Shown here: one piece after another, positions 3,139-62,788 of the stretch
How the letters are laid out: each line of letters begins with the position of its first letter
Position numbering within the stretch: the first letter of the stretch is position 1
Virus record (IMG/VR): IMGVR_UViG_3300045988_126426
Direction: 5' to 3' (one strand)
Length of the DNA stretch: 64,000 bases
Origin: a virus
Program-made: the position numbers and the translations under genes
Notes under the pieces: model-generated
Database searches by the model: none
Told to the model about the DNA's origin: nothing
Seen by the model: the letters and a program-made list of their open reading frames with translations, nothing else

Positions 3139-3208
3139 ATTTTTTATTATTCCTTTTCTTTTATAATAAGGTAGTTTTCTTTTTTGTTATTATATCATAA
3201 AAAATCTA

Positions 3209-3237
3209 TTGACAAAAGGTAGGATATATGCTACTAT
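3209..3237 (+). promoter_or_regulatory. sigma70-type promoter (TTGACA-17-TACTAT)
   Basis: ttgaca at 3209-3214, 17-nt spacer, tactat at 3232-3237; near-duplicate of the promoter at 3311. Confidence 0.5.
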
Positions 3238-3310
3238 ATAAGTGTCTTAAAGATAAGGCAATAAAACAAAAGCCTTTGATTTAAACACAAAAAAGAGTTT
3301 AAAAAAACTC

Positions 3311-3339
3311 TTGACAATAAGTAGCAAATATGCTACAAT
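3311..3339 (+). promoter_or_regulatory. sigma70-type promoter (TTGACA-17-TACAAT)
   Basis: ttgaca at 3311-3316, 17-nt spacer 'ataagtagcaaatatgc', tacaat at 3334-3339. Shares the 'atatgctac(t/a)at' core with the promoter at 3209, a possible operator. Confidence 0.55.
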
Positions 3340-3890
3340 ATAAACAAGTTAAGAGAGAAGCACAAAAGAGTGGTGATAACAACCGATACTTGAAACACCA
3401 GCTTTCAAGCTAATCAATTAACAACAACTTATAAACAGTCTTAAAAAGGAGAGTCAAACAAAAGTAAATCTTAAAAATAAATAAAACGGTTGTACATGAT
3501 GAAATGTACATAAGGATAATGAAAAAGGCTTTCAAATGCTGGTAACATTCAAAAGCCCATAGATAAGTATAAATTATACTTAGCCCTAAACAATCTAAGT
3601 ATAACATATCTTAAAAAGTTTTGTCAATTCTGATAAAACAAAATTCATTTTTTGAACGGCAGACAACTAAATAGTTTGTCTTGCATGATGATATATGATA
3701 AACCCTAGATAATAGCAAGGTGGTGCTTGCAGGGTTTTGATAAGGCAATAGCCAACGTGGTAAGTAATAGACAAGTGTCAGAGTAGGGAATAAACCGTGA
3801 CCATAGGGAACACTTGCAAGGAACAACAAACAAAACTTATATATTTGTAATATATAAGGGATAACTTAACAATGAACGGATCTAAACTTA

Positions 3891-4413: not shown

Positions 4414-4956
4414 ATGAGTGAAATTATTATGAATGAAGTCAAAGTATGGGTTGGCAATTTAGGAAAGTACAATGAAGGAAATCTTGTAGGAAGATGGATC
4501 AAGCTTCCTATTGATGAAGATGATCTCGAAAAGGTGTTAGAATCAATCGGGATTGATAATGAAGAATATGAAGAAATCTTTATTGCTGATTATGATCTTC
4601 CTTTTGATTCTAAGGAATTAGGAGAATATACATCAATCGAAAGATTGAATGAAATCGCAGAACGCTATAACGATTTGACAGAAGATGGAAAAGAAGTATT
4701 CAACGAAATTAGTACTGATTTCAAATTAGATGAAGCTTTTGACATCGTAGAAGATGGCGATTATATGATTTATTCTAATTGTGATGACATGGGAGACGTA
4801 GCAATGCAATATGTGGAAGAAATTGGATTGTTAGACAATGTACCTGGTGATTTAGTTGATTATTTTGATTATCAATCATATGGTCGTGATATGGAAATCA
4901 ATGGTTATTATATCAGATCTAGTTACTGTGATGGCTATATTGAGATTATTAGATAA
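4414..4956 (+). CDS. ardA: ArdA antirestriction protein
   Basis: 180 aa with hallmark motifs 'VWVGNLGKYNEGNLVGRWIKLPID', 'YEEIFIADYDLPF', 'CDDMGDVAMQYVEEIG', 'LVDYFDYQSYGRD', as in Tn916 Orf18 ArdA. Confidence 0.85.
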   Translation: MSEIIMNEVKVWVGNLGKYNEGNLVGRWIKLPIDEDDLEKVLESIGIDNEEYEEIFIADYDLPFDSKELGEYTSIERLNEIAERYNDLTEDGKEVFNEISTDFKLDEAFDIVEDGDYMIYSNCDDMGDVAMQYVEEIGLLDNVPGDLVDYFDYQSYGRDMEINGYYIRSSYCDGYIEIIR

Positions 4957-39136: not shown

Positions 39137-40765
39137 ATGGCTAAGAAACAAAATAAAAATACGATGCAGATCAATAGAAAAATTACTTTAATTCCAGTTG
39201 CAAGTGACAATGATAGTTGGAAGAAGAAGATGAATACATATCTTGAAAAATTTTATTTTGACAAGAAGATTAAAGCCAAAGAAAGACAGATTAAAAATAC
39301 AAGTAAACCAGAAAGAAAAGACGAATATAAACAACAACTTGCAGAATATAAAAAGCAGCAAGAACAGTTCTTAAATGGTGAACTTGAAGATTATACAAAG
39401 CAGATGGTTATGAGTTATACATATGATTTGGTAAGAGACTGTATGGAAAGTGAAGCAAGACAGAAGAATTTCATCATGTCTTATATGTTCTCAGAGATGA
39501 TCAGAGAAAAGGTCTGCTACTTAAAAAACAAAAAAGAAAAGGAAAAATGGGTAAATGACAATATCAATGTTGCATTTAGAGTTAAAGGATCACCAAAGGG
39601 AAGTATCTTTGACGATGTTGAGATTTATAGTCCATTAAGAGCATTGAGTATTCAGGGATATACTCAGGAATTAAAGGGGAGAGTTAAGAAATTCGCCACT
39701 GATGGTGGTTTAGATGGGAAGTTGGCGGTTGATAATTATAAATTAGATTCGCCATTTCATATGTCAAAACAAGGATTTGATATTGTTCATGAATATGAAG
39801 ACTTGACAGAGCTTAAAAAGAACATTGGTAAATCAAGTTGTGAAATATATGTGAATCTTGGCAACGGTGGCGTTCCTACATTTGCAAGATTCCAATTAGA
39901 TTTTGGTCATAAAGGAAATCGAGAAGAGTTAATTTCTACAATTACAAAAGTGTTTACTGGTGAATATAAAGTATGCGGAAGTTCAATTCAGATTAATAAA
40001 AAGAATAAGATTATATTAAATCTTGGACTTGAAATTCCAAAAAGACTTACTGAATTAGATGAAAACACGGTAGTTGGAGTCGATCTTGGGTTAGCAGTTC
40101 CAGCTGTATGCTCTTTAAATAATAATCAGTATAAGAAAGAGTATATTGGGGACGGAGAAGCTTTTGTAAAACAGCGAGGCAAAATTCAAAAAGAAAAACA
40201 GAGATTATAAAAAGCATTAAAACTTTCAAAGGGTGGACATGGAAGAAAGAGAAAAATGTTAGCCTTAGAAAGGTTCAAAGAAAGAGAAGCAAATTTTGTA
40301 AATACTTATTGTCATAGAATCAGTAAAAAAGTTGTTGAATATGCACTTAAGAATAATGCCAAGTATATCAATATTGAGAATTTAAAAGGATATGATTCTA
40401 GTAAATTTATTCTGAGAAATTGGAGTTTCTACCAGCTTCAGCAAGATATTACATATAAAGCAGAAAGATATGGTATTGAAGTAAGAAAAGTCAATCCTGC
40501 GTTTACTTCTCAGGTATGTAGCTTTTGTGGTCATTGGGAATCTGGGCAGAGAATAAATCAGAAAACTTTTAAATGTGGAAATCCAAATTGCAAGAGTCAT
40601 AATCTTAAATTTTTCAATGCTGATTATAATGCTGCAAGAAATATTTCAATGTCAACATTATTTACAAGTGACAAATATAAGTTTGGGAAAGAATCTTTAC
40701 AAAAGGCAGCAGACTATTACGGAATTGACTTAGAAATTGATTCTGATGATCAAGAAATTGCTTAA
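39137..40765 (+). CDS. Cas12f (Cas14)/TnpB-like compact type V CRISPR effector, interrupted by a single in-frame TAA (40208-40210)
   Basis: ORFs 39137-40210 and 40256-40765 are in the same frame and bridge through 'KEKQRL*KALKLSKGGHGRKRKML'. RuvC-I 'VVGVDLGLAVPAVCS'; RuvC-II 'KYINIENLKG'; Zn finger 'CSFCGH...CGNPNC'; RuvC-III 'NADYNAARNIS'. 'KQYGIEVRKVNPAFTSQVCSFCGH' is Cas12f-like. A CRISPR array follows. Confidence 0.65.
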
Positions 40766-40842
40766 ATTATCGACTGTATATGGCATGTTTTGGATGAGGT
40801 GCCGAACTTCATCGATCATAGAATATATGATTATGCCAAAAG

Positions 40843-41176
40843 TGAGGTTTAGATAACACTCACTAAAATCTATGTGATTAGGTAACAAAGCTATACAAAA
40901 GAATTTGAGGTTTTATACCTATAAAAAATTACATAGGTACAAAACTGATGCTAATTTTGTCTTACATTTTTGGTAGATTGACACCTATAAAAAATCACAT
41001 AGGTACAAAACCAACTGAATTATTGAAGAAAGTAGAGGGATGATTGATACCTATAAAAATTGTATTTTAATACATGGCGTGTTCTGGAGAATTTATCTCG
41101 CTTATTTATTTGATAAGTACGCCAAAAGTGAGACCGAGTGGTACTCACTAAAATCTATGTTAATTGAATATTTGAG
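40843..41176 (+). other. array-proximal region: 3-4 degenerate repeat units at 66-bp phase plus two copies of a hairpin module; candidate tracrRNA/leader or trailer
   Basis: Degenerate units 'ACCTATAAAAAAT(T/C)ACATAGGTACAAAAC' at 40917, 40983 and 41049. Duplicated 'GCCAAAAGTGAG...CTCACTAAAATCTATGT' hairpins at 40843-40885 and 41119-41160. Confidence 0.4.
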
Positions 41177-41662
41177 GTACAAGACCTATCAAATTTAACA
41201 TAGGTACAGAACTTTTTCATGTTTTGTTCCTCTTTTCTTTTAGTACAAGACCTATCAAATTTAACATAGGTACAGAACTTTTTCATGTTTTGTTCCTCTT
41301 TTCTTTTAGTACAAGACCTATCAAATTTAACATAGGTACAGAACATGTTCTTCTGCATAGCATATAAATGACATGTACAAGACCTATCAAATTTAACATA
41401 GGTACAGAACATTTTCATGTTTTGTTCCTCTTTTCTTTTAGTACAAGACCTATCAAATTTAACATAGGTACAGAACTTTTTCATGTTTTGTTCCTCTTTT
41501 CTTTTAGTACAAGACCTATCAAATTTAACATAGGTACAGAACATGTTCTTCTGCATAGCATATAAATGACATGTACAAGACCTATCAAATTTAACATAGG
41601 TACAGAACATTGTTTGTGGTAGTCGCTAAACGCTTTCCGTTTAAGACCTATCAAATTTAACA
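41177..41662 (+). CRISPR. CRISPR array: 7 perfect 36-bp repeats (GTACAAGACCTATCAAATTTAACATAGGTACAGAAC) plus a truncated terminal repeat; 30-32-nt spacers
   Basis: Repeats start at 41177, 41243, 41309, 41375, 41441, 41507 and 41573. Spacer order is A,A,B,A',A,B,C, i.e. only 3 distinct spacers. The repeat has an internal hairpin ACCTAT/ATAGGT. Confidence 0.8.
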
Positions 41663-41857
41663 AAAACTAAAGGAATTTAAACAAAAAAAATAAAAACAAG
41701 ACAACAACGTAAACAAGAAATAAAACGATTTTTTGGTCAGTTGAGTCCTGAAGAATTGGACACGCTATTAGAAAGAAATGGAATTAATGACAAAGAGTCT
41801 GATGAGGCTCTTGCATATAGAATTATAAAAGAAGAAATTGAGAAAGGAGAGATATAA

Positions 41858-42184
41858 ATGGGAAAGAGATTGGTTGTAGCATTACTTGCAGGTAAACAAT
41901 CAGAATCGTTTACTGAAATACATGGTCAGTATGCAACTTCATTAACAGAATCTGAATGTAAAAATATAAGAACCTCTTTGGGCAATAGGCGTCCAAGTCA
42001 GCAGGATGTTAACAACGCAATTTGTGTGTTAATAGCAGATTTTTACGCATCTGGGGGATATGCATTAAATGTAGATATTACAAAATTTGATTGGACATTT
42101 GCACCGCCAAAAGAAATGACGGTTGCAGAAATCGAAAAAGAACTCGGTCATAAAGTAAAAATTGTAGAGGAGAAAGAAGAATGA
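41858..42184 (+). CDS. hypothetical protein
   Basis: 108 aa; RBS 'aaaggagag'. Confidence 0.4.
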   Translation: MGKRLVVALLAGKQSESFTEIHGQYATSLTESECKNIRTSLGNRRPSQQDVNNAICVLIADFYASGGYALNVDITKFDWTFAPPKEMTVAEIEKELGHKVKIVEEKEE

Positions 42185-56778: not shown

Positions 56779-58372
56779 CATTTTGAACGATTGCAGAGGA
56801 CTTTTTGAAGATGAGGTATTTGAAATTATCATGCAGGAGCGTGGTATTGACGATCCAGAGCATTTTCTAAATCCTACGGAAGATGATTTACTTCCTCTTG
56901 ATGACTTAAAAAATATTGATAAAGCATATAAGCTTCTGGTAGATGCAGTATACAAAGATAAACGTATTGCAGTACATTTTGACACAGATACTGACGGAGT
57001 TGCAGCGGGAACTATTATGACACGACATTTAAAAAATATGACAGAAAATCCAGTAGATGTATACATTAACCGAGGCAAACAGCATGGATTAGCAAATCAG
57101 GACATTGCTAAGTTTTATGGGTATGATTTACTGATTGTCGTTGATAGTTTGGATAAAGACGAGACTCAGTATAAGGATTTAAAAGAAACAGGAGTTGATG
57201 TGATTGTGTTAGACCACCATGCCATCGATCCAGATGTTCCTTATGACAACTATTGCACATTAGTTTCTTCTCAGAGAGAATATGAAAATCCACAGCTATC
57301 TGGCGCAGGTGTTGTTTGGAAGTTTTGCAAGTATATTGATGAGCAGAATGGTACAGATTATGCAGATGATTTGGTCGATCTAGCAGGTGTTGGGCTGATT
57401 GCAGATATGATGGATATGAGAGTAATGGAGAATCGTTACATTGTATCCGAAGCTTTGAAAGAAATTAGAAATCCTGCGATTAAGAAGATTATTGGTGGAT
57501 TTGAATTCAACAGCACAGCAGTTGCTTTTAGTATTGCACCGTTGGTTAATGCTGCAAACAGAATGGATCAGAATGAAATTGCTCTAAATGCTTTCCTTGA
57601 AGATGACAATAAAAAGTTACGAGGATATATTAAACAGTTAAAGCAATGCAAAGAAGACCAAAATGAAGAGGTCGCACAGCTGATGCCAATGATTGCGGAA
57701 CAGTGTGAAGCTCAGAGTGATAAAAAGATGATCACAACTTTTATCGACACTGATTATGGTATTTCTGGGTTAATTGGAAACAAATTGCTTGAAAAATACC
57801 AGAAGCCGATTCTTGTGCTAAAGAAAAATGAAGATACATATGCAGGATCTATGCGAGCAGTTGGTGTAAAAGACTTCCGACAGATGTGTAATAACAGTCA
57901 GTTGGCTGAAGCAAATGGACATGAACTTGCCAGTGGTATTGAAATTCCTAGAAAGAACTTTGCTGAGTTCACCTCTTATATAGAAGAAACTCTTCCAGAT
58001 AAGCCAGAAGATACAACAGTTGATGTTGATATTATGCTTGATATTTCAGACATCACAAGAAAAATGGTTGACATGATTAAGAAAATTGATCGTATTTCTG
58101 GACAAGGATTTAAACCTGTAAGAGTTTATATTGAAGAGATTGACGACTATGACATTGGTCAAATGAGCAATTATAAACATCTTGTCCTGAAACCATGTAA
58201 CAATGATAAATTGTGGATTATCAAATGGAACTATGATGGATCGTTTGAGGATATGGAAGACCATTCTATGATGAATGATGAGTTTTGTGCAGTTACTACA
58301 CTTGATTGCGGATTTTTTGGAAGAAAGTTTGTGCTGAAAGCTGTGTGTGATTCACTTGAAGAGGTGGGATGA
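56753..58372 (+). CDS. RecJ-like DHH-family ssDNA exonuclease
   Basis: 'IAVHFDTDTDGVAAG', 'LLIVVDSLD', 'VIVLDHHA' motifs; 539 aa. Confidence 0.65.
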   Translation: MKTSKKKYNILNDCRGLFEDEVFEIIMQERGIDDPEHFLNPTEDDLLPLDDLKNIDKAYKLLVDAVYKDKRIAVHFDTDTDGVAAGTIMTRHLKNMTENPVDVYINRGKQHGLANQDIAKFYGYDLLIVVDSLDKDETQYKDLKETGVDVIVLDHHAIDPDVPYDNYCTLVSSQREYENPQLSGAGVVWKFCKYIDEQNGTDYADDLVDLAGVGLIADMMDMRVMENRYIVSEALKEIRNPAIKKIIGGFEFNSTAVAFSIAPLVNAANRMDQNEIALNAFLEDDNKKLRGYIKQLKQCKEDQNEEVAQLMPMIAEQCEAQSDKKMITTFIDTDYGISGLIGNKLLEKYQKPILVLKKNEDTYAGSMRAVGVKDFRQMCNNSQLAEANGHELASGIEIPRKNFAEFTSYIEETLPDKPEDTTVDVDIMLDISDITRKMVDMIKKIDRISGQGFKPVRVYIEEIDDYDIGQMSNYKHLVLKPCNNDKLWIIKWNYDGSFEDMEDHSMMNDEFCAVTTLDCGFFGRKFVLKAVCDSLEEVG

Positions 58373-59634
58373 TTATGGCAGGAAAAGAAGTATTTTGTTC
58401 AGTCTGCGGTTTATCATCTACTTTGGACGGACATTTTTGGAAAGAAAAGAAGTTGTGCAACAGACACAATATGCAGTTAGAAAAACATGGAAAACTGTTA
58501 GATAAAGATATAGTGATCCCTAAAAAGAGGCATAGATGGACTCCAGAAGAAGAAGTCAGATTAGAAGAGTTGTATAAACAAGGAGTTTCTTTTGAAAAAA
58601 TTAGTAAACAAATGAATCTATCCGTGGCAGCCATAGCGGCTCGAAGTCGTCATTTGAATCTTGGCAATAAGTATATGAGGTCTAATAATCCTAATTTTAA
58701 AGCCACATATCAGGATTATGATTGGTGTTATGAAAGATATGTTGTTAAGGGAATGACTCATCAAGAAATGGCAGATGAATGTGGTGCCTCGTTAAGAGTT
58801 ATTCAGAAATGGTGTTCTGAAGTTCATAAATTAAATTGTTGGACTTTCAAAAACAATAAGACATTAACCGATAAACAGTATCAAATTATTTTATTTGGCA
58901 CATTAGGAGATGGGCATATTGATAAGAGAGAGACGCAACCTTTGTATATTGAATGTCATTCTATAGCAGAAAAGGATTACGTGTTTTGGAAATATGAAGA
59001 ATTAAAAGATTTATGTAACTCTGAGCCAAAGTATTATGAAGGTGGCTATAAAGATTTTGGTTCTGGTACAAAGTATTGGTGTAAACCACATTACAGATTT
59101 GAGACAAGAATTATTAATCAATTGAAGGACATTCGAGACATGCCAAGAATCAATAAGATTTGGCAATTGAATGAATTTGGATTATCTCTTCATTGCTTAG
59201 ACGATGGATGCAGAGGTAAATCAGCGTGGGAATTATGTTTGGCAGAATATACTCAGCAAGAAATTGATTTATATATCAAGCTGTGTAAAAAGAGATTTGG
59301 GTTATATGCTAAACAGCAGACAGATAAAAGATATATAAGATTTGATTCAGATTCAAGTAGAATTATTGATCAAATTATTTTAAACAATATTCCTAATTCG
59401 CTTGACATTATCAAAAAGAAGATATTAGAAAACGATAAAATTTCTAAAAAAGTAAGATACATTTATGTTGTCATGCAGAACGGAGAACAGATTGGTTTAT
59501 CTACATATTGTAGATCTCATGGTATTCCATATGAAAAGACAAGAAAATATGTCATTGAGCACAATATCTCTCGAATTCAAGAAGCTGATCTACTAAATAG
59601 ATTAAAAGCTGGAGGATTAATGAATGCGGTATAA
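58369..59634 (+). CDS. putative LAGLIDADG-type homing endonuclease with N-terminal zinc finger and HTH repeats
   Basis: Two dodecapeptide-like motifs, 'ILFGTLGDGHID' and 'LHCLDDGCRGK', about 100 aa apart; inserted between recJ and the Pol III alpha gene. Confidence 0.4.
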   Translation: MIMAGKEVFCSVCGLSSTLDGHFWKEKKLCNRHNMQLEKHGKLLDKDIVIPKKRHRWTPEEEVRLEELYKQGVSFEKISKQMNLSVAAIAARSRHLNLGNKYMRSNNPNFKATYQDYDWCYERYVVKGMTHQEMADECGASLRVIQKWCSEVHKLNCWTFKNNKTLTDKQYQIILFGTLGDGHIDKRETQPLYIECHSIAEKDYVFWKYEELKDLCNSEPKYYEGGYKDFGSGTKYWCKPHYRFETRIINQLKDIRDMPRINKIWQLNEFGLSLHCLDDGCRGKSAWELCLAEYTQQEIDLYIKLCKKRFGLYAKQQTDKRYIRFDSDSSRIIDQIILNNIPNSLDIIKKKILENDKISKKVRYIYVVMQNGEQIGLSTYCRSHGIPYEKTRKYVIEHNISRIQEADLLNRLKAGGLMNAV

Positions 59635-62600
59635 CAATTATCATAAACACGATCATGTGTCAAATATCTTTACCCCAGATACAAATACTAAACAAGAAGA
59701 GTATATTCTTAAAGCATTGGAGTATGGGCATACAAGTTATTATAGTACGAATCATGGCAGTTTTGGAGATATCTTTGAAGCCAGAACATTGTGTAATAAG
59801 TATGGATTGCGTTGTATTGCAGGCATCGAAGGATATATTGTCCCAAATGCGTCGCAAAAAGACAAAAGGAATTATCATATTATAGTGATACCTAAAACCG
59901 ATGAAGCCAGAAAGAAGATGAATTATGTATCAAGTATGGCAAACATCAAAGGGTTTTATTATAAACCAAGATTTTTTTTATCTGATTTATTAAAACTTGA
60001 TCCCAATGATGTTTATATTACAACTGCATGTGTAGCAGGATTATTACGAGATGAGGATTCAATTAATGAGATTTTTATGCCTCTATATAAGCATTTTAAA
60101 GAAAATGTAATGCTAGAAGTTCAGACTCATGATGATCCGTTGCAAATTGAAATCAATAAAAAGGCAATATATCTGTCTGATCAATATGGGTTAAGCTTAA
60201 TTGCTGCAAATGATTCACATTATATTGATGAATCAGGCAAAGAAGAACGTTTGGAATTATTGCGAGGCAAACATATCAATTACGGCAGTGAAGACGATTT
60301 TATATTAGATTATCCTACTGCTGAAACAATGATTGAAAGATTCAAGAAACAAGGCGTTTTGACGGATAGACAAATCTCAAATGCATTAAATAATACGTTA
60401 TTGTTTGATGAATGTGAAGAAATACAACTCGATTATTCAATTAAAATGCCTACGATTTATCCTAACTTGACTCCAGAACAAAGAGTGGGTCTTCTAAAAA
60501 AGGAAGTAAATAAACGATTCAAAGAAATTCGAAAAGAAGAACATATTGAAGGGGAAGAGTTTAAAAAATATAAAGATGGAATTCGATATGAGATGAAAAT
60601 CATTGAGGATACTAATGATGAAATACATACAGCGGACTATTTTTTGTTTAATGAGAAAAATGTAGATCTTGCAGTTAATAAATATGGTGGTGTATTGACT
60701 CGTGGTGGAAGAGGTAGTTGCGGTTCCTTCTATATAAATAGGATATTGGGAATGACACAACTAGATAGATTTAAAATTAATCTTCCGCTTTTCCCAGACA
60801 GATTTGCTTCTACTGCCAGATTGCTAGAGAATCGCTCATTGCCCGATATAGATTTTAACGTAAAATCCCAAGAACCATTTATTAAAGCTTCAAGGGAATT
60901 GCTTGGTGAACACGGATGTTATCCAATGTATGCACCAGGAACCATGCAAATATCTGAAGCATTTAGAAATGTATGTAGGTCTAAGAATATGTCATTTGAC
61001 GAATTTAATCATGTGGCAAAAAATCTGGAAGAATATCAAGATGATCCGAAATGGAAACCGATTATCGAAGAGGCAAATCGCTATGTTGGAACAATTATAT
61101 CTGGTTCTGTACATCCTTGCGCCCATATTTTAAGCAACACTAATTTGCTTTATGAGTACGGTGTTACTCGTTTAGGTGAAAACGTATGTGTTTTAATTAC
61201 TTCATCTGAAGCAGATGAATATAAGGTACTTAAAAACGATTATCTTATCGTCACGGTCTGGAAGCTTATTGATGAAACATTTAAAGAGATTGGAATTCCG
61301 ATTATTAAGGCAAATGAATTATTGGATAAAATTAAAGATGATCAGCGAATATGGGATTTATTTAAAAATGGTATTACATGTACTTTAAATCAGGTTGATA
61401 GCGACAATGGATGTAGACAAGCAAAACAGTATGGTATTTCGTCATTTGAGGATGGCGCCCATATTGCAGCAGCCATAAGACCGTCTTTTGATTCATGGAG
61501 AGAACAGTTTTTAGATAGAAAACCATATACAACTGGTTCAGATCAGCTAGACGATGTTTTGAAAGATACTCATGGATACATTTTATTTCAAGAATCATTA
61601 ATGCAATATTTTGACTGGTTAGGGGTTAGCCCAGCTGAATCTATTGGTTTAATTAAGAAAATTTCCAAGAAAAAAATTAAACAATCGGATTTTGATAATC
61701 TTGAGGAAAGAATCAAAAAGCAATGGATTATTAATACTGGCTCAGAAGAAATGTTTTCCGAAACATGGCATTTGGTACAAAGTTGTATGAGCTACGGATT
61801 TTGTTCAGCCCATGCAGCAGCAACCTCATTGGACATGTGTTATGGAGCATATCTAAAGGTCAATTATCCTTACGAATACTACAGTGTTTGCTTCAATAAT
61901 TACGTTGGAGACAAAGAACGAACGAATAAACTGACAAATGAGTTAGAGTATTTTGGTATTAAATTAAGTGATATTAAGTTTAGGCACTCTAACTCAAAAT
62001 ATTCTTATGATAAAGAAACCCATACAATATTCAAAGGCATGTCTTCTATAAAATTTGTTGGGGACAATGTTGGAGAAGAATTATATGAATTGCGAGACAA
62101 TCAATATGATTCTTTTATAGATTTGTTGCAAGATATCTCTAATACATCTGTCAATTCTAAACAGTTGGATATTTTAATTAAATTAGATTTCTTTTCTGAG
62201 TTTGGGGATATTAATTATTTGCTCAAACAAGTTGAATGTTATGACAAATTCTATGGCAGAAAACAGTTTACAATTTCGAAGCTCCAAAAAGAAGGCGAAG
62301 ATATTGAATTAATCAAAAAGTATTGTCAGAAACAGACAGAAAAAACATTGAAAGAATTTGATTATATTGGATTTTTGAAAGATATGACATCAAGTATGTC
62401 ATATTCACCAGTTTCAATAACTGAACGGATGGATTATCAGAAAGAATATATTGGTTACATCAGTTACATTAACCCTAACATTGGCAAGCGATATTACTAT
62501 GTCAAAGATTTATCTGTAACAAAATCCATCGTCAACATTCAGTTATATGAAATTTACTCTGGAAAAACACAGAAAGTAAAAATGTGGACAACCCAATATA

Positions 62601-62788
62601 AGAAGAATCCATTCGATGAAGGAGATATTCTATATCTGAAATCAGTTGAAAAGAAACATAAAAAAGAACCAACTGGGGAGATCAATACAAAAACAGGAAA
62701 GAAAATCTACAAAGATGTACCAGATAAATTTGAGTTTTGGCTTAAGAATTTCACTATTAAAAATGACGCAAAGGAGGAATTAGTATAA
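59624..62788 (+). CDS. DNA polymerase III alpha subunit (DnaE/PHP-domain replicative polymerase)
   Basis: 1054 aa; PHP N-terminus 'YHKHDHVSNIF...HTSYYSTNHGSFGDIFEA...GLRCIAGIEGYIV'. Confidence 0.75.
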   Translation: MRYNNYHKHDHVSNIFTPDTNTKQEEYILKALEYGHTSYYSTNHGSFGDIFEARTLCNKYGLRCIAGIEGYIVPNASQKDKRNYHIIVIPKTDEARKKMNYVSSMANIKGFYYKPRFFLSDLLKLDPNDVYITTACVAGLLRDEDSINEIFMPLYKHFKENVMLEVQTHDDPLQIEINKKAIYLSDQYGLSLIAANDSHYIDESGKEERLELLRGKHINYGSEDDFILDYPTAETMIERFKKQGVLTDRQISNALNNTLLFDECEEIQLDYSIKMPTIYPNLTPEQRVGLLKKEVNKRFKEIRKEEHIEGEEFKKYKDGIRYEMKIIEDTNDEIHTADYFLFNEKNVDLAVNKYGGVLTRGGRGSCGSFYINRILGMTQLDRFKINLPLFPDRFASTARLLENRSLPDIDFNVKSQEPFIKASRELLGEHGCYPMYAPGTMQISEAFRNVCRSKNMSFDEFNHVAKNLEEYQDDPKWKPIIEEANRYVGTIISGSVHPCAHILSNTNLLYEYGVTRLGENVCVLITSSEADEYKVLKNDYLIVTVWKLIDETFKEIGIPIIKANELLDKIKDDQRIWDLFKNGITCTLNQVDSDNGCRQAKQYGISSFEDGAHIAAAIRPSFDSWREQFLDRKPYTTGSDQLDDVLKDTHGYILFQESLMQYFDWLGVSPAESIGLIKKISKKKIKQSDFDNLEERIKKQWIINTGSEEMFSETWHLVQSCMSYGFCSAHAAATSLDMCYGAYLKVNYPYEYYSVCFNNYVGDKERTNKLTNELEYFGIKLSDIKFRHSNSKYSYDKETHTIFKGMSSIKFVGDNVGEELYELRDNQYDSFIDLLQDISNTSVNSKQLDILIKLDFFSEFGDINYLLKQVECYDKFYGRKQFTISKLQKEGEDIELIKKYCQKQTEKTLKEFDYIGFLKDMTSSMSYSPVSITERMDYQKEYIGYISYINPNIGKRYYYVKDLSVTKSIVNIQLYEIYSGKTQKVKMWTTQYKKNPFDEGDILYLKSVEKKHKKEPTGEINTKTGKKIYKDVPDKFEFWLKNFTIKNDAKEELV

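What the first reader, a model, noticed from the sequence alone, without database searches (positions are those of the whole stretch)
40190..40270. Single in-frame TAA splits the Cas12f-like gene between RuvC-I and RuvC-II
ORFs 39137-40210 and 40256-40765 share a frame. The 45 nt between them translate cleanly (KALKLSKGGHGRKRK) and continue the conserved Lys/Arg-rich segment that precedes RuvC-II in TnpB/Cas12f. So the gene was recently intact. This is either a premature stop (an inactivated effector kept as a crRNA/array carrier), programmed read-through, or an assembly error. Other genes use TAA as a normal stop, so a recoded genetic code is unlikely.
Basis: seen in the sequence. Interest (0 to 1): 0.7.

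Follow-up and report, generated by a model that had tools for sequence, protein, structure and literature searches.

The report
Nonsense mutation in phage Cas12f gene
A gut jumbo phage carries a miniature CRISPR nuclease gene (Cas12f) that a single C-to-T change has cut short with a stop codon; this is a real but rare and recent knock-out allele, not a sequencing error or an unusual genetic code, so it is essentially an ordinary fresh pseudogene.

Summary
ORFs 39137-40210 and 40256-40765 are one Cas12f gene interrupted by a single TAA at 40208-40210.

- **Ancestral state.** All twelve 542-aa alleles read from the same 90% cluster have Gln here. It is CAA in every intact allele whose DNA I read, three of which share the window's exact flanking 24 nt. 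Among more distant homologues, 111 of 119 have Gln and none ends at this position. The change is therefore Q358* by one C>T transition.
- **Not an assembly error.** The identical 357-aa fragment sits on 4-5 contigs, including a MEGAHIT and a SPAdes assembly.
- **Not recoding.** TAA is the commonest normal stop in the window (42 of 86 long open frames). No tRNA is found in the window or in about 10 kb beyond its right end.
- **Recent.** Window-specific changes in the gene are 19 synonymous, 3 missense and the nonsense. Downstream of the stop there are 4 synonymous and no missense changes.
- **Effect.** The product keeps WED/REC and RuvC-I (D316). It loses E414, D496 and the zinc finger, so it is most likely nuclease-dead.

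The RNA part of the locus looks intact: two tracrRNA-like scaffolds, each followed by a mini-array. A sister lineage deleted 1.36 kb of the same gene but kept its arrays.

Interest is low for the stop itself and moderate for the locus.

The parts
39137..40765 (+). Cas12f (type V-F) effector gene, 542 codons, interrupted at codon 358.
   Evidence: PDB sequence search: Al3Cas12f 9NZO/9NZR and CnCas12f1 8HR5, E about 1e-64. Foldseek of the AF2 model of intact allele P0001 gives Cas12f structures as the top 22 hits. More than 1000 full-length homologues were found.
40208..40210 (+). TAA nonsense codon (Q358*), derived from CAA by one C>T transition at 40208.
   Evidence: All seven intact alleles with DNA at this site have CAA. 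L009, L024 and L030 share the window's flanking context AGATTA-CAA-AAAGCATTAAAAC exactly. Gln is found in 111 of 119 homologues.
39137..40210 (+). Truncated product, 357 aa: WED/REC, RuvC strands beta1-3 and most of the following helix. It contains D316 (40082-40084).
   Evidence: ORF list. Secondary structure of the model: strands 308-316, 323-327 and 334-337, then helix 340-363. The exact protein is on 4-5 contigs.
40211..40255 (+). 45 nt now untranslated. They encode KALKLSKGGHGRKRK, including the near-invariant GGHGRxxK motif.
40256..40765 (+). Downstream ORF, 169 aa: RuvC-II E414 (40376-40378), zinc finger C461/C464/C480/C485 (40517-40591) and RuvC-III D496 (40622-40624). It begins at an internal Met that is Leu in most homologues and has only a weak Shine-Dalgarno-like match.
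   Evidence: Pfam Cas12f1-like_TNB, E = 5e-20. Column 374 is Leu in 106 of 119 and Met in 11. Duplex energy with the anti-SD is -3.3 kcal/mol against a median of -7.7 for gene starts.
40775..40875 (+). tracrRNA-like scaffold 1: closing stem, two inner hairpins, GTGAG/CTCAC hairpin, then an AAAAT + CTATGT anti-repeat tail.
   Evidence: The same minimum-free-energy architecture appears in 13 scaffolds. RNAalifold gives 23 pairs, 10 with compensatory changes. The tail pairs best with its own repeat. No Rfam family matches.
40910..41062 (+). Mini CRISPR array 1: 36-nt repeats at 40910-40945 and 40976-41011, a degenerate third repeat from 41042, and spacers at 40946-40975 and 41012-41041.
41068..41160 (+). 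tracrRNA-like scaffold 2, with anti-repeat CTATGTTAA complementary to TTAACATAG in the repeat of array 2.
41177..41662 (+). Mini CRISPR array 2: seven 36-nt repeats (GTACAAGACCTATCAAATTTAACATAGGTACAGAAC) plus a degenerate terminal repeat. Spacer order is A, A, B, A', A, B, C.
   Evidence: The otherwise identical 205-kb contig L001 has only A, B, C.

Best explanation
The window is part of a human-gut jumbo phage of about 200-250 kb. The phage carries a compact type V-F CRISPR system: one Cas12f gene followed by two tracrRNA-plus-mini-array modules, with no adaptation genes nearby.

In this lineage a single C>T transition changed codon 358 from CAA (Gln) to TAA. Translation should therefore stop inside the first long helix of the RuvC domain. 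The resulting 357-aa protein keeps WED/REC and RuvC-I (D316). It lacks RuvC-II (E414), RuvC-III (D496) and the zinc-finger TNB domain, so it cannot cut DNA.

The mutation is real, recent and rare. It is a segregating loss-of-function allele, that is, a fresh pseudogene. The guide-RNA part of the locus has not yet decayed.

**Shown:** the stop, its ancestral state, its reproducibility, its rarity, purifying selection on the gene until recently, and which domains are lost.

**Inferred:** that the truncated protein is inactive, and that the allele is neutral or mildly advantageous to the phage.
For: 1. **One gene.** Pfam and NCBIfam profiles run continuously over the stop.
2. **Ancestral Gln/CAA.** All twelve 542-aa members read from the same 90% cluster have Q358. 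The codon is CAA in L003, L008, L009, L010, L024, L027 and L028. Gln is found in 111 of 119 homologues and none ends there.
3. **Not an artefact.** The exact 357-aa and 169-aa products are on 4-5 contigs from JGI, ENA and Logan. These include ERZ27229420 k117_2958 (205 kb) and ERZ1742750 NODE_198 (coverage 77), whose gene DNA is 100% identical to the window.
4. **Rare.** Listed intact alleles are on more than 80 contigs. Pattern scans of JGI metagenomes and IMG/VR found only CAA.
5. **Recent.** Window-specific substitutions are 19 synonymous, 3 missense and 1 nonsense. All three missense states are also present in the intact allele P0134. Downstream of the stop there are 4 synonymous and no missense changes.
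6. **Standard code.** TAA ends 42 of 86 long open frames. Large genes such as the 1054-aa DNA polymerase are uninterrupted. No tRNA is found in the window or in related loci.
7. **Lost parts.** E414, D496 and the four zinc-binding Cys residues are all downstream. Q358 sits in helix 340-363 of a confident model, pLDDT 87.7.
8. **No dedicated restart.** The Shine-Dalgarno-like match before ATG 40256 is weak, and that residue is Leu in most homologues.
9. **Loss of this effector happens in this phage group.** A sister lineage on at least 24 contigs has a 1.36-kb internal deletion of the same gene.
Against: - I could not look at reads, so the allele frequency within a sample is unknown.
- The contigs carrying TAA are identical over the 13 kb compared. 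They differ only in repeat copy number, so they may all represent one clone sampled several times.
- Only about 74 kb of a 205-250 kb genome could be scanned for tRNAs. A phage-encoded ochre suppressor elsewhere is not excluded.
- The absence of missense changes downstream of the stop (0 against 4 synonymous) is equally what continued selection under read-through would give. The numbers are too small to tell the two apart.
- The closest intact allele I found is still about 3% different in DNA, so the immediate intact ancestor was not recovered.
Confidence: 0.85

Rival explanations
1. Programmed or tolerated read-through. UAA-358 is decoded at a useful rate, by a phage or host ochre suppressor tRNA or by near-cognate tRNA-Gln, so full-length Cas12f is still made. 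Insertion of Gln would restore the wild-type protein. The stop would then act as an expression throttle for a potentially toxic nuclease.
For: The ancestral residue is Gln, which is what near-cognate or glnV-type suppression of UAA inserts (established knowledge). The downstream 184 codons are still open and show 4 synonymous and no missense lineage-specific changes. The tracrRNA-like scaffolds and arrays are intact.
Against: - UAA is read by both release factors and is the main stop codon of this genome, 42 of 86. An efficient ochre suppressor would extend about half of the proteins.
- No tRNA is found in 64 kb plus about 10 kb of flank, or in related loci.
- The allele is rare and shallow. 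All other alleles, and every more distant homologue, carry a sense codon.
- No terminator-like stem-loop was found anywhere in 38800-41950. I did not fold the stretch just after the stop.
Confidence: 0.05
2. Assembly or sequencing error: the true sequence has CAA.
For: A single-base difference is the smallest possible error, and no reads were available to me.
Against: The identical TAA is found in contigs built by different assemblers from different ENA analyses (MEGAHIT k117_2958 and SPAdes NODE_198 at coverage 77), and in JGI and Logan records.
Confidence: 0.02
3. Functional split or repurposed locus. The 357-aa fragment, with or without the 169-aa fragment restarted at ATG 40256, is retained for a nuclease-independent role. 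It could bind guide RNA or DNA as a repressor or decoy. Alternatively, the tracrRNA/crRNA modules could be kept to work with Cas12f supplied in trans by co-infecting relatives.
For: A sister lineage on at least 24 contigs lost 1.36 kb of the gene yet keeps four well-formed tracrRNA-plus-array modules. Huge phages with arrays but no effector, and with a catalytically dead Cas14, have been described (PMC7162821). Nuclease-dead TnpB relatives act as RNA-guided repressors (PMC10705468).
Against: - The cut falls inside the RuvC fold, after beta3 and within helix 1, not at a domain boundary.
- The near-invariant GGHGRKRK motif is lost from both fragments.
- There is no real ribosome-binding site for the second fragment.
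- The allele is rare and young, so there has been no time for selection to show.
- No target was found for any spacer.
Confidence: 0.07
4. Genuine two-gene architecture, or a recoded genetic code in which TAA is a sense codon.
For: Two clean ORFs lie in the same frame.
Against: None of 119 homologues ends at this column. The Met at 374 is not conserved. TAA terminates 42 of 86 long open frames, and the other same-frame neighbouring ORFs I inspected are separate, tightly packed genes.
Confidence: 0.01

Closest known systems
Cas12f1 / type V-F1 CRISPR effectors with solved structures: Al3Cas12f (9NZO, 9NZR; PMC13186708), CnCas12f1 (8HR5), AsCas12f (8J12, 7WJU), Un1Cas12f1/Cas14a1 (7C7L, 7L48)
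   Same: - Domain order and fold. Foldseek E = 2.5e-27 to 1e-16, and Cas12f structures outrank Cas12p, TnpB and every other Cas12 type.
- Sequence. phmmer E about 1e-64 over residues 249-512.
- The D/E/D RuvC triad and a CxxC...CxxxxC zinc finger.
- Size, 542 aa.
- A structured tracrRNA encoded between the gene and the array, with an anti-repeat, and 36-nt repeats with 30-nt spacers.
   Different: - This copy has a nonsense codon at residue 358.
- It is encoded by a jumbo phage rather than a cell.
- Identity is only 26-30% over the whole length.
- The N-terminal REC region is longer and largely helical.
- The locus has two to four tandem tracrRNA-plus-mini-array modules, each with its own repeat variant, instead of one tracrRNA and one array.
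Phage-encoded CRISPR-Cas systems of huge phages, including type V-F/Cas14 variants (Al-Shayeb et al. 2020, PMC7162821)
   Same: The effector is phage-borne, the arrays are compact and there are no Cas1/Cas2/Cas4 genes nearby. Effector-less or catalytically dead versions occur in related phages.
   Different: Here the inactive state is a single fresh nonsense codon in an otherwise intact gene, seen alongside many intact alleles of the same phage species. I did not check whether this particular protein cluster was among those reported.
TnpB (IS200/IS605 RNA-guided nuclease) and its omega-RNA
   Same: It is the evolutionary parent family. The NCBIfam guided_TnpB profile hits both fragments, 124 bits on the C-terminal part. 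The fold is related (ranks 24, 25 and 34).
   Different: There is no TnpA and no transposon ends. The locus has CRISPR arrays with variable spacers and a separate tracrRNA. Solved Cas12f proteins score far better than solved TnpB (E about 1e-64 against 4e-06).
Cas12p ('Cas12 hacker'), a phage-encoded miniature Cas12 (bioRxiv 10.1101/2025.01.20.633832; 9JFS)
   Same: Phage-encoded, 500-700 aa, dependent on a tracrRNA.
   Different: The structural match is much weaker (E = 3e-11, 12% identity, rank 23). It is not the same family.

Membership tests
Cas12f (type V-F CRISPR effector) | Miniature (about 400-700 aa) TnpB-derived protein with the WED-REC-RuvC-TNB(zinc finger) fold, closest to known Cas12f proteins. 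| tested here: met
   Intact alleles are 542 aa. The AF2 model has pLDDT 87.7. The top 22 Foldseek PDB hits are all Cas12f. phmmer against Al3Cas12f and CnCas12f1 gives E about 1e-64.
Cas12f (type V-F CRISPR effector) | Complete RuvC catalytic triad (D, E, D) and zinc-finger cysteines in a single polypeptide. | tested here: not met
   All residues are encoded: D316, E414, D496, C461, C464, C480 and C485. In this window, however, the TAA at codon 358 separates D316 from the rest. Intact alleles such as P0001 and P0123-P0134 meet the criterion. This copy is therefore a Cas12f pseudogene or nonsense allele, not a functional member.
Cas12f (type V-F CRISPR effector) | Adjacent CRISPR array. | tested here: met
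   Two arrays with a 66-nt period (36-nt repeat plus 30-nt spacer) start about 145 nt and about 410 nt downstream of the gene. Spacers differ between closely related phages.
Cas12f (type V-F CRISPR effector) | tracrRNA with an anti-repeat that pairs with the repeat. | tested here: met
   A scaffold of about 95-110 nt lies upstream of each array. 13 copies fold alike. 10 of 23 consensus pairs show compensatory changes. The single-stranded tail is complementary to the cognate repeat: it ranks first in 8 of 13 and in the top three in 12 of 13. Expression was not tested.
Cas12f (type V-F CRISPR effector) | RNA-guided, PAM-dependent cleavage of double-stranded DNA. | not testable with these tools
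   This needs a biochemical or interference assay. No protospacers were found from which a PAM could be inferred.
TnpB of IS200/IS605 transposons | Located in a transposon with TnpA and/or LE/RE ends, and guided by an omega-RNA overlapping its 3' end, with no CRISPR array. | tested here: not met
   No TnpA is present among the neighbours. CRISPR arrays and a separate tracrRNA are present instead.
Stop-codon-recoded phage (alternative genetic code) | The reassigned stop occurs in frame in many genes, is avoided as a terminator, and a suppressor tRNA is present. | tested here: not met
   TAA terminates 42 of 86 long open frames. Large genes are uninterrupted. No tRNA is found in the window or its flank. 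The rest of the genome could not be scanned.

The most novel reading that the evidence does not exclude
Loss of the Cas12f effector is recurrent, and possibly selected, in this gut jumbo-phage species. There is a nonsense allele here and an independent 1.36-kb deletion in a widespread sister lineage. In both, the tandem tracrRNA-plus-mini-array modules are retained. They might still be useful without a resident nuclease, for example by being loaded onto Cas12f supplied by co-infecting relatives, or by acting as RNA decoys against related systems.
Probability: 0.1. Interest if true: 0.6.

Novelty: new member of a known kind. Interest (0 to 1): 0.25.

Why it matters
- **For annotation.** The two ORFs should be joined and flagged as one Cas12f pseudogene or nonsense allele, not as a 'hypothetical protein' plus an 'IS605 OrfB transposase'.
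- **For biology.** It is a small data point that phage-borne CRISPR effectors are dispensable and are lost repeatedly within a single phage species, while their guide-RNA modules persist for a time.
- **For tool developers.** The intact alleles (P0001, P0123-P0134) with their tracrRNA-like scaffolds are ready-made candidates for a 542-aa Cas12f related to Al3Cas12f and CnCas12f1. The copy in this window would need a T>C repair at 40208.
- **In general.** The stop codon itself teaches nothing new about translation or genetic codes.

Tried and rejected
**Searches that led nowhere**
- **Spacer targets.** I looked for protospacers of the window's five spacers, and of 14 spacers from relatives. I searched the window with up to 3 mismatches, all fetched loci, INPHARED phages, IMG/VR and GTDB genomes. 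Every match was to an array itself, so the targets and the PAM remain unknown.
- **Suppressor tRNA.** I tried to walk along the 205-235 kb contigs to scan the whole genome. Only the window plus about 10 kb of right flank and the related loci were scanned, and all were negative.
- **Closest relatives in phage GenBank records.** Megablast of the locus found nothing. tblastn found only distant TnpB-like hits of 38% identity or less.
- **Rfam.** Only sub-threshold chance hits over the scaffold and array region.
- **Promoters and terminators** around the locus were not above the shuffled expectation.

**Ideas considered and rejected**
- A dedicated restart site for the C-terminal fragment.
- A two-gene architecture.
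- TAA recoding.
- Membership in Cas12p ('hacker') or CasLambda.

Full report
**1. The observation**

ORF 39137-40210 (357 aa) ends in TAA at 40208-40210. ORF 40256-40765 (169 aa) is in the same frame. The 45 nt between them read KALKLSKGGHGRKRK.

This is not a chance pair of ORFs. The Pfam OrfB_IS605 profile matches positions 5-58 at the end of the first ORF and 64-117 at the start of the extended second one. The NCBIfam TnpB profile covers 129-239 and then 246-386. A single domain model therefore runs straight through the stop.

**2. What the codon used to be**

A search with the joined protein returned more than 1000 relatives, nearly all 510-580 aa. The best hit, P0001, is 99% identical, 542 aa long and has Gln at position 358.

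The 90%-identity cluster has 64 members. It contains the window's two fragments and many 542-aa alleles. All twelve of those that I read have Q358.

At the DNA level the codon is CAA in every intact allele with DNA at this site: L003, L008, L009, L010, L024, L027 and L028. L009, L024 and L030 carry the window's flanking 24 nt exactly, with C where the window has T. The change is therefore one C>T transition, CAA to TAA.

In an alignment of 119 more distant homologues the column is Gln in 111, Ser in 6 and Asn in 2. None ends there. The following GGHGRxxK motif is almost invariant. The Met that starts the second ORF is Leu in 106 of 119. The shorter 439-aa relatives in other phage contigs are also single genes with Gln at this site.

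**3. Is it real?**

The exact 357-aa product is recorded on 4-5 contigs in JGI, ENA and Logan. Two were read:
- a 205-kb MEGAHIT contig from ERZ27229420;
- a 64.8-kb SPAdes contig from ERZ1742750, at coverage 77.

Both have gene DNA 100% identical to the window. An assembly error is therefore very unlikely.

One caution applies. These contigs are identical to the window over all 13 kb compared, apart from the repeat number in array 2. They may represent one clone seen several times. I could not inspect reads.

**4. Recoding or read-through?**

- TAA terminates 42 of the 86 long + strand open frames, against 27 for TAG and 17 for TGA.
- The other same-frame neighbouring ORFs I inspected are packed genes whose next ATG follows the stop directly, and they were called as separate genes in the database contigs.
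- Large genes, such as the 1054-aa DNA polymerase, are uninterrupted.
- ARAGORN finds no tRNA in the window, in about 10 kb beyond its right end, or in related loci.
A distant suppressor tRNA is not formally excluded.
- An ochre suppressor would extend about half of the phage's proteins. UAA is read by both release factors (established knowledge).
- The internal ATG at 40256 has only a weak Shine-Dalgarno-like match: -3.3 kcal/mol, against a median of -7.7 for 57 gene starts, and ordinary among 291 internal ATGs. Nothing suggests a designed restart.

**5. Age of the mutation**

Against seven intact alleles, the changes specific to the window lineage are 19 synonymous, 3 missense (G27S, E62D, T69A) and the nonsense change. 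Downstream of the stop there are 4 synonymous and no missense changes. The S27, D62 and A69 states are also present in the intact allele P0134.

A gene drifting without selection should collect roughly two to three missense changes per synonymous one. The gene was therefore under purifying selection for almost all of this branch, and the stop is young.

The allele is also rare. The intact alleles listed sit on more than 80 contigs. Pattern scans of JGI metagenomes and IMG/VR returned only CAA copies.

**6. What is lost**

An AlphaFold2 model of the intact allele P0001 is confident (pLDDT 87.7, pTM 0.71). Its best structural matches are all Cas12f: CnCas12f1 8HR5, Al3Cas12f 9NZR and 9NZO, AsCas12f, SpCas12f1 and Un1Cas12f1. 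These rank ahead of Cas12p, TnpB, Fanzor and the other Cas12 types. Sequence search of the PDB agrees, with E about 1e-64 (9NZO and 9NZR are Al3Cas12f, PMC13186708).

In the model, residue 358 lies in helix 340-363. That helix follows the first three RuvC strands (308-316, 323-327, 334-337). Everything after it is missing from the 357-aa product: the second long helix, strand 408-414 carrying E414, the zinc finger (C461, C464, C480, C485) and D496. The cut is inside a fold, not at a domain border. I infer that the product is nuclease-dead and probably poorly folded in its RuvC part.

**7. The surroundings**

The window is the early/replication region of a phage. It encodes a DNA pol III alpha-like polymerase, a DnaB-like helicase, a RecJ-like exonuclease, a Sak4-like protein and Ant-like proteins. 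Contigs carrying the same genes are 205-310 kb and come from human gut metagenomes.

Downstream of the gene there are two modules. Each consists of a conserved structured element of about 95-101 nt (40775-40875 and 41068-41160), followed by a mini-array with a 66-nt period (40910-41062 and 41177-41662).

Evidence that these elements are tracrRNA-like:
- Thirteen such elements, from the window, close relatives and relatives about 50% identical, fold into the same architecture. It has a closing stem, either no inner hairpin or two, a GTGAG/CTCAC hairpin and a single-stranded tail.
- RNAalifold finds 23 consensus pairs, 10 with compensatory changes.
- The tail is complementary to the 3' half of the cognate repeat. 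One example is CTATGTTAA against TTAACATAG. It is the best partner among 13 repeats in 8 cases and in the top three in 12.

This is the anatomy expected of a type V-F tracrRNA. Expression was not tested, and no Rfam family matches.

Relatives with intact genes have two to four such modules, with different spacers. No cas1, cas2 or cas4 genes are nearby. No target was found for any spacer.

**8. A second, independent loss**

The cluster also holds a 73-aa stub (P0126) found on at least 24 contigs. In those phages the gene has an internal deletion corresponding to window 39336-40698. Four tracrRNA-plus-array modules remain downstream. The effector has therefore been lost at least twice in this phage group, while the RNA modules were retained.

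This fits a dispensable accessory system. It also leaves open a role for the arrays without the effector, which I rate at about 10%.

**9. Comparison and verdict**

The intact gene is a member of Cas12f. Fold, sequence, triad, zinc finger, array and tracrRNA-like element are all met. The copy in this window fails the criterion of a complete catalytic polypeptide, so it is a Cas12f nonsense allele or pseudogene.

Phage-borne type V-F systems, compact arrays without adaptation genes, and dead or effector-less versions were already described for huge phages (PMC7162821).

The stop codon itself is an ordinary, recent loss-of-function mutation. It is not an assembly error, not recoding and, most likely, not programmed read-through. 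I give 0.85 confidence to this reading.

Interest is low for the finding as posed. It is somewhat higher for the tandem tracrRNA-array architecture and the repeated loss of the effector.

Noticed in passing
window 40775-41662; also L004 5264-6400, L009 5139-6250, L010 5139-6250, L012 5170-5745: The Cas12f locus carries tandem modules, each made of a structured tracrRNA-like scaffold (about 95-110 nt) and its own mini-array with its own repeat variant. There are two modules in the window and up to four in relatives. The anti-repeat tail co-varies with the cognate repeat. The window's first scaffold looks like a recombinant of the relatives' scaffold I (5' part) and scaffold III (3' part), which would have removed two modules.
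   Followed up: partly
window 41177-41662 versus L001 8041-8300: Array 2 has spacer order A, A, B, A', A, B, C (a 198-nt duplication, with one spacer copy differing by 1 nt). The otherwise identical 205-kb contig has A, B, C, and a SPAdes contig ends inside the A-A version. This is either real copy-number variation or an assembler artefact in the repeats.
   Followed up: partly
L004-L007 5001-6400 (corresponds to window 39137-41700): A sister phage lineage on at least 24 contigs has a 1.36-kb internal deletion of the cas12f gene, leaving a 73-aa stub (P0126). It keeps four tracrRNA-plus-array modules. This is an independent loss of the effector.
   Followed up: partly
window 58369-62788 versus L031 6657-9950: The DNA pol III alpha-like gene (59624-62788, 1054 aa) is only 40% identical in protein to the polymerase at the same place in related contigs, although the flanks are 97% identical in DNA. 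It is preceded by an extra 421-aa ORF (58369-59634) with HNH/LAGLIDADG homing-endonuclease-like matches. This looks like a cassette replacement.
   Followed up: partly
window 38636-38956: A 106-aa protein with a hydrophobic N-terminus and a C-terminal 'KYAMKKSHPDNGGSADDFRKFRELYEEM' stretch that resembles a J-domain HPD motif. Pfam gave no hit at E <= 0.01.
   Followed up: no
window 3198-3241 and 3300-3343: Two copies of a strong sigma-70-like promoter (TTGACA, 17 nt, TACTAT or TACAAT). They lie in the about 2.7-kb AT-rich, repeat-rich region without long ORFs that separates the minus-strand genes (503-2687) from the long plus-strand gene block starting near 4414.
   Followed up: no
L031/L032 10499-12750 versus L033 10499-12751 (just beyond the window's right end): A RecD-like helicase is a single 750-aa gene in one related contig but two overlapping ORFs (413 and 353 aa) in two others, which suggests a frameshift. 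In L032 the anaerobic ribonucleotide reductase NrdD carries a LAGLIDADG insertion (1115 aa against 745 aa).
   Followed up: no
window 40205-40210: Besides the nonsense change, the preceding Leu codon is TTA in the window and in some intact alleles, but CTA in others. The TTA-CAA context therefore existed before the C>T hit and was not created together with it.
   Followed up: yes
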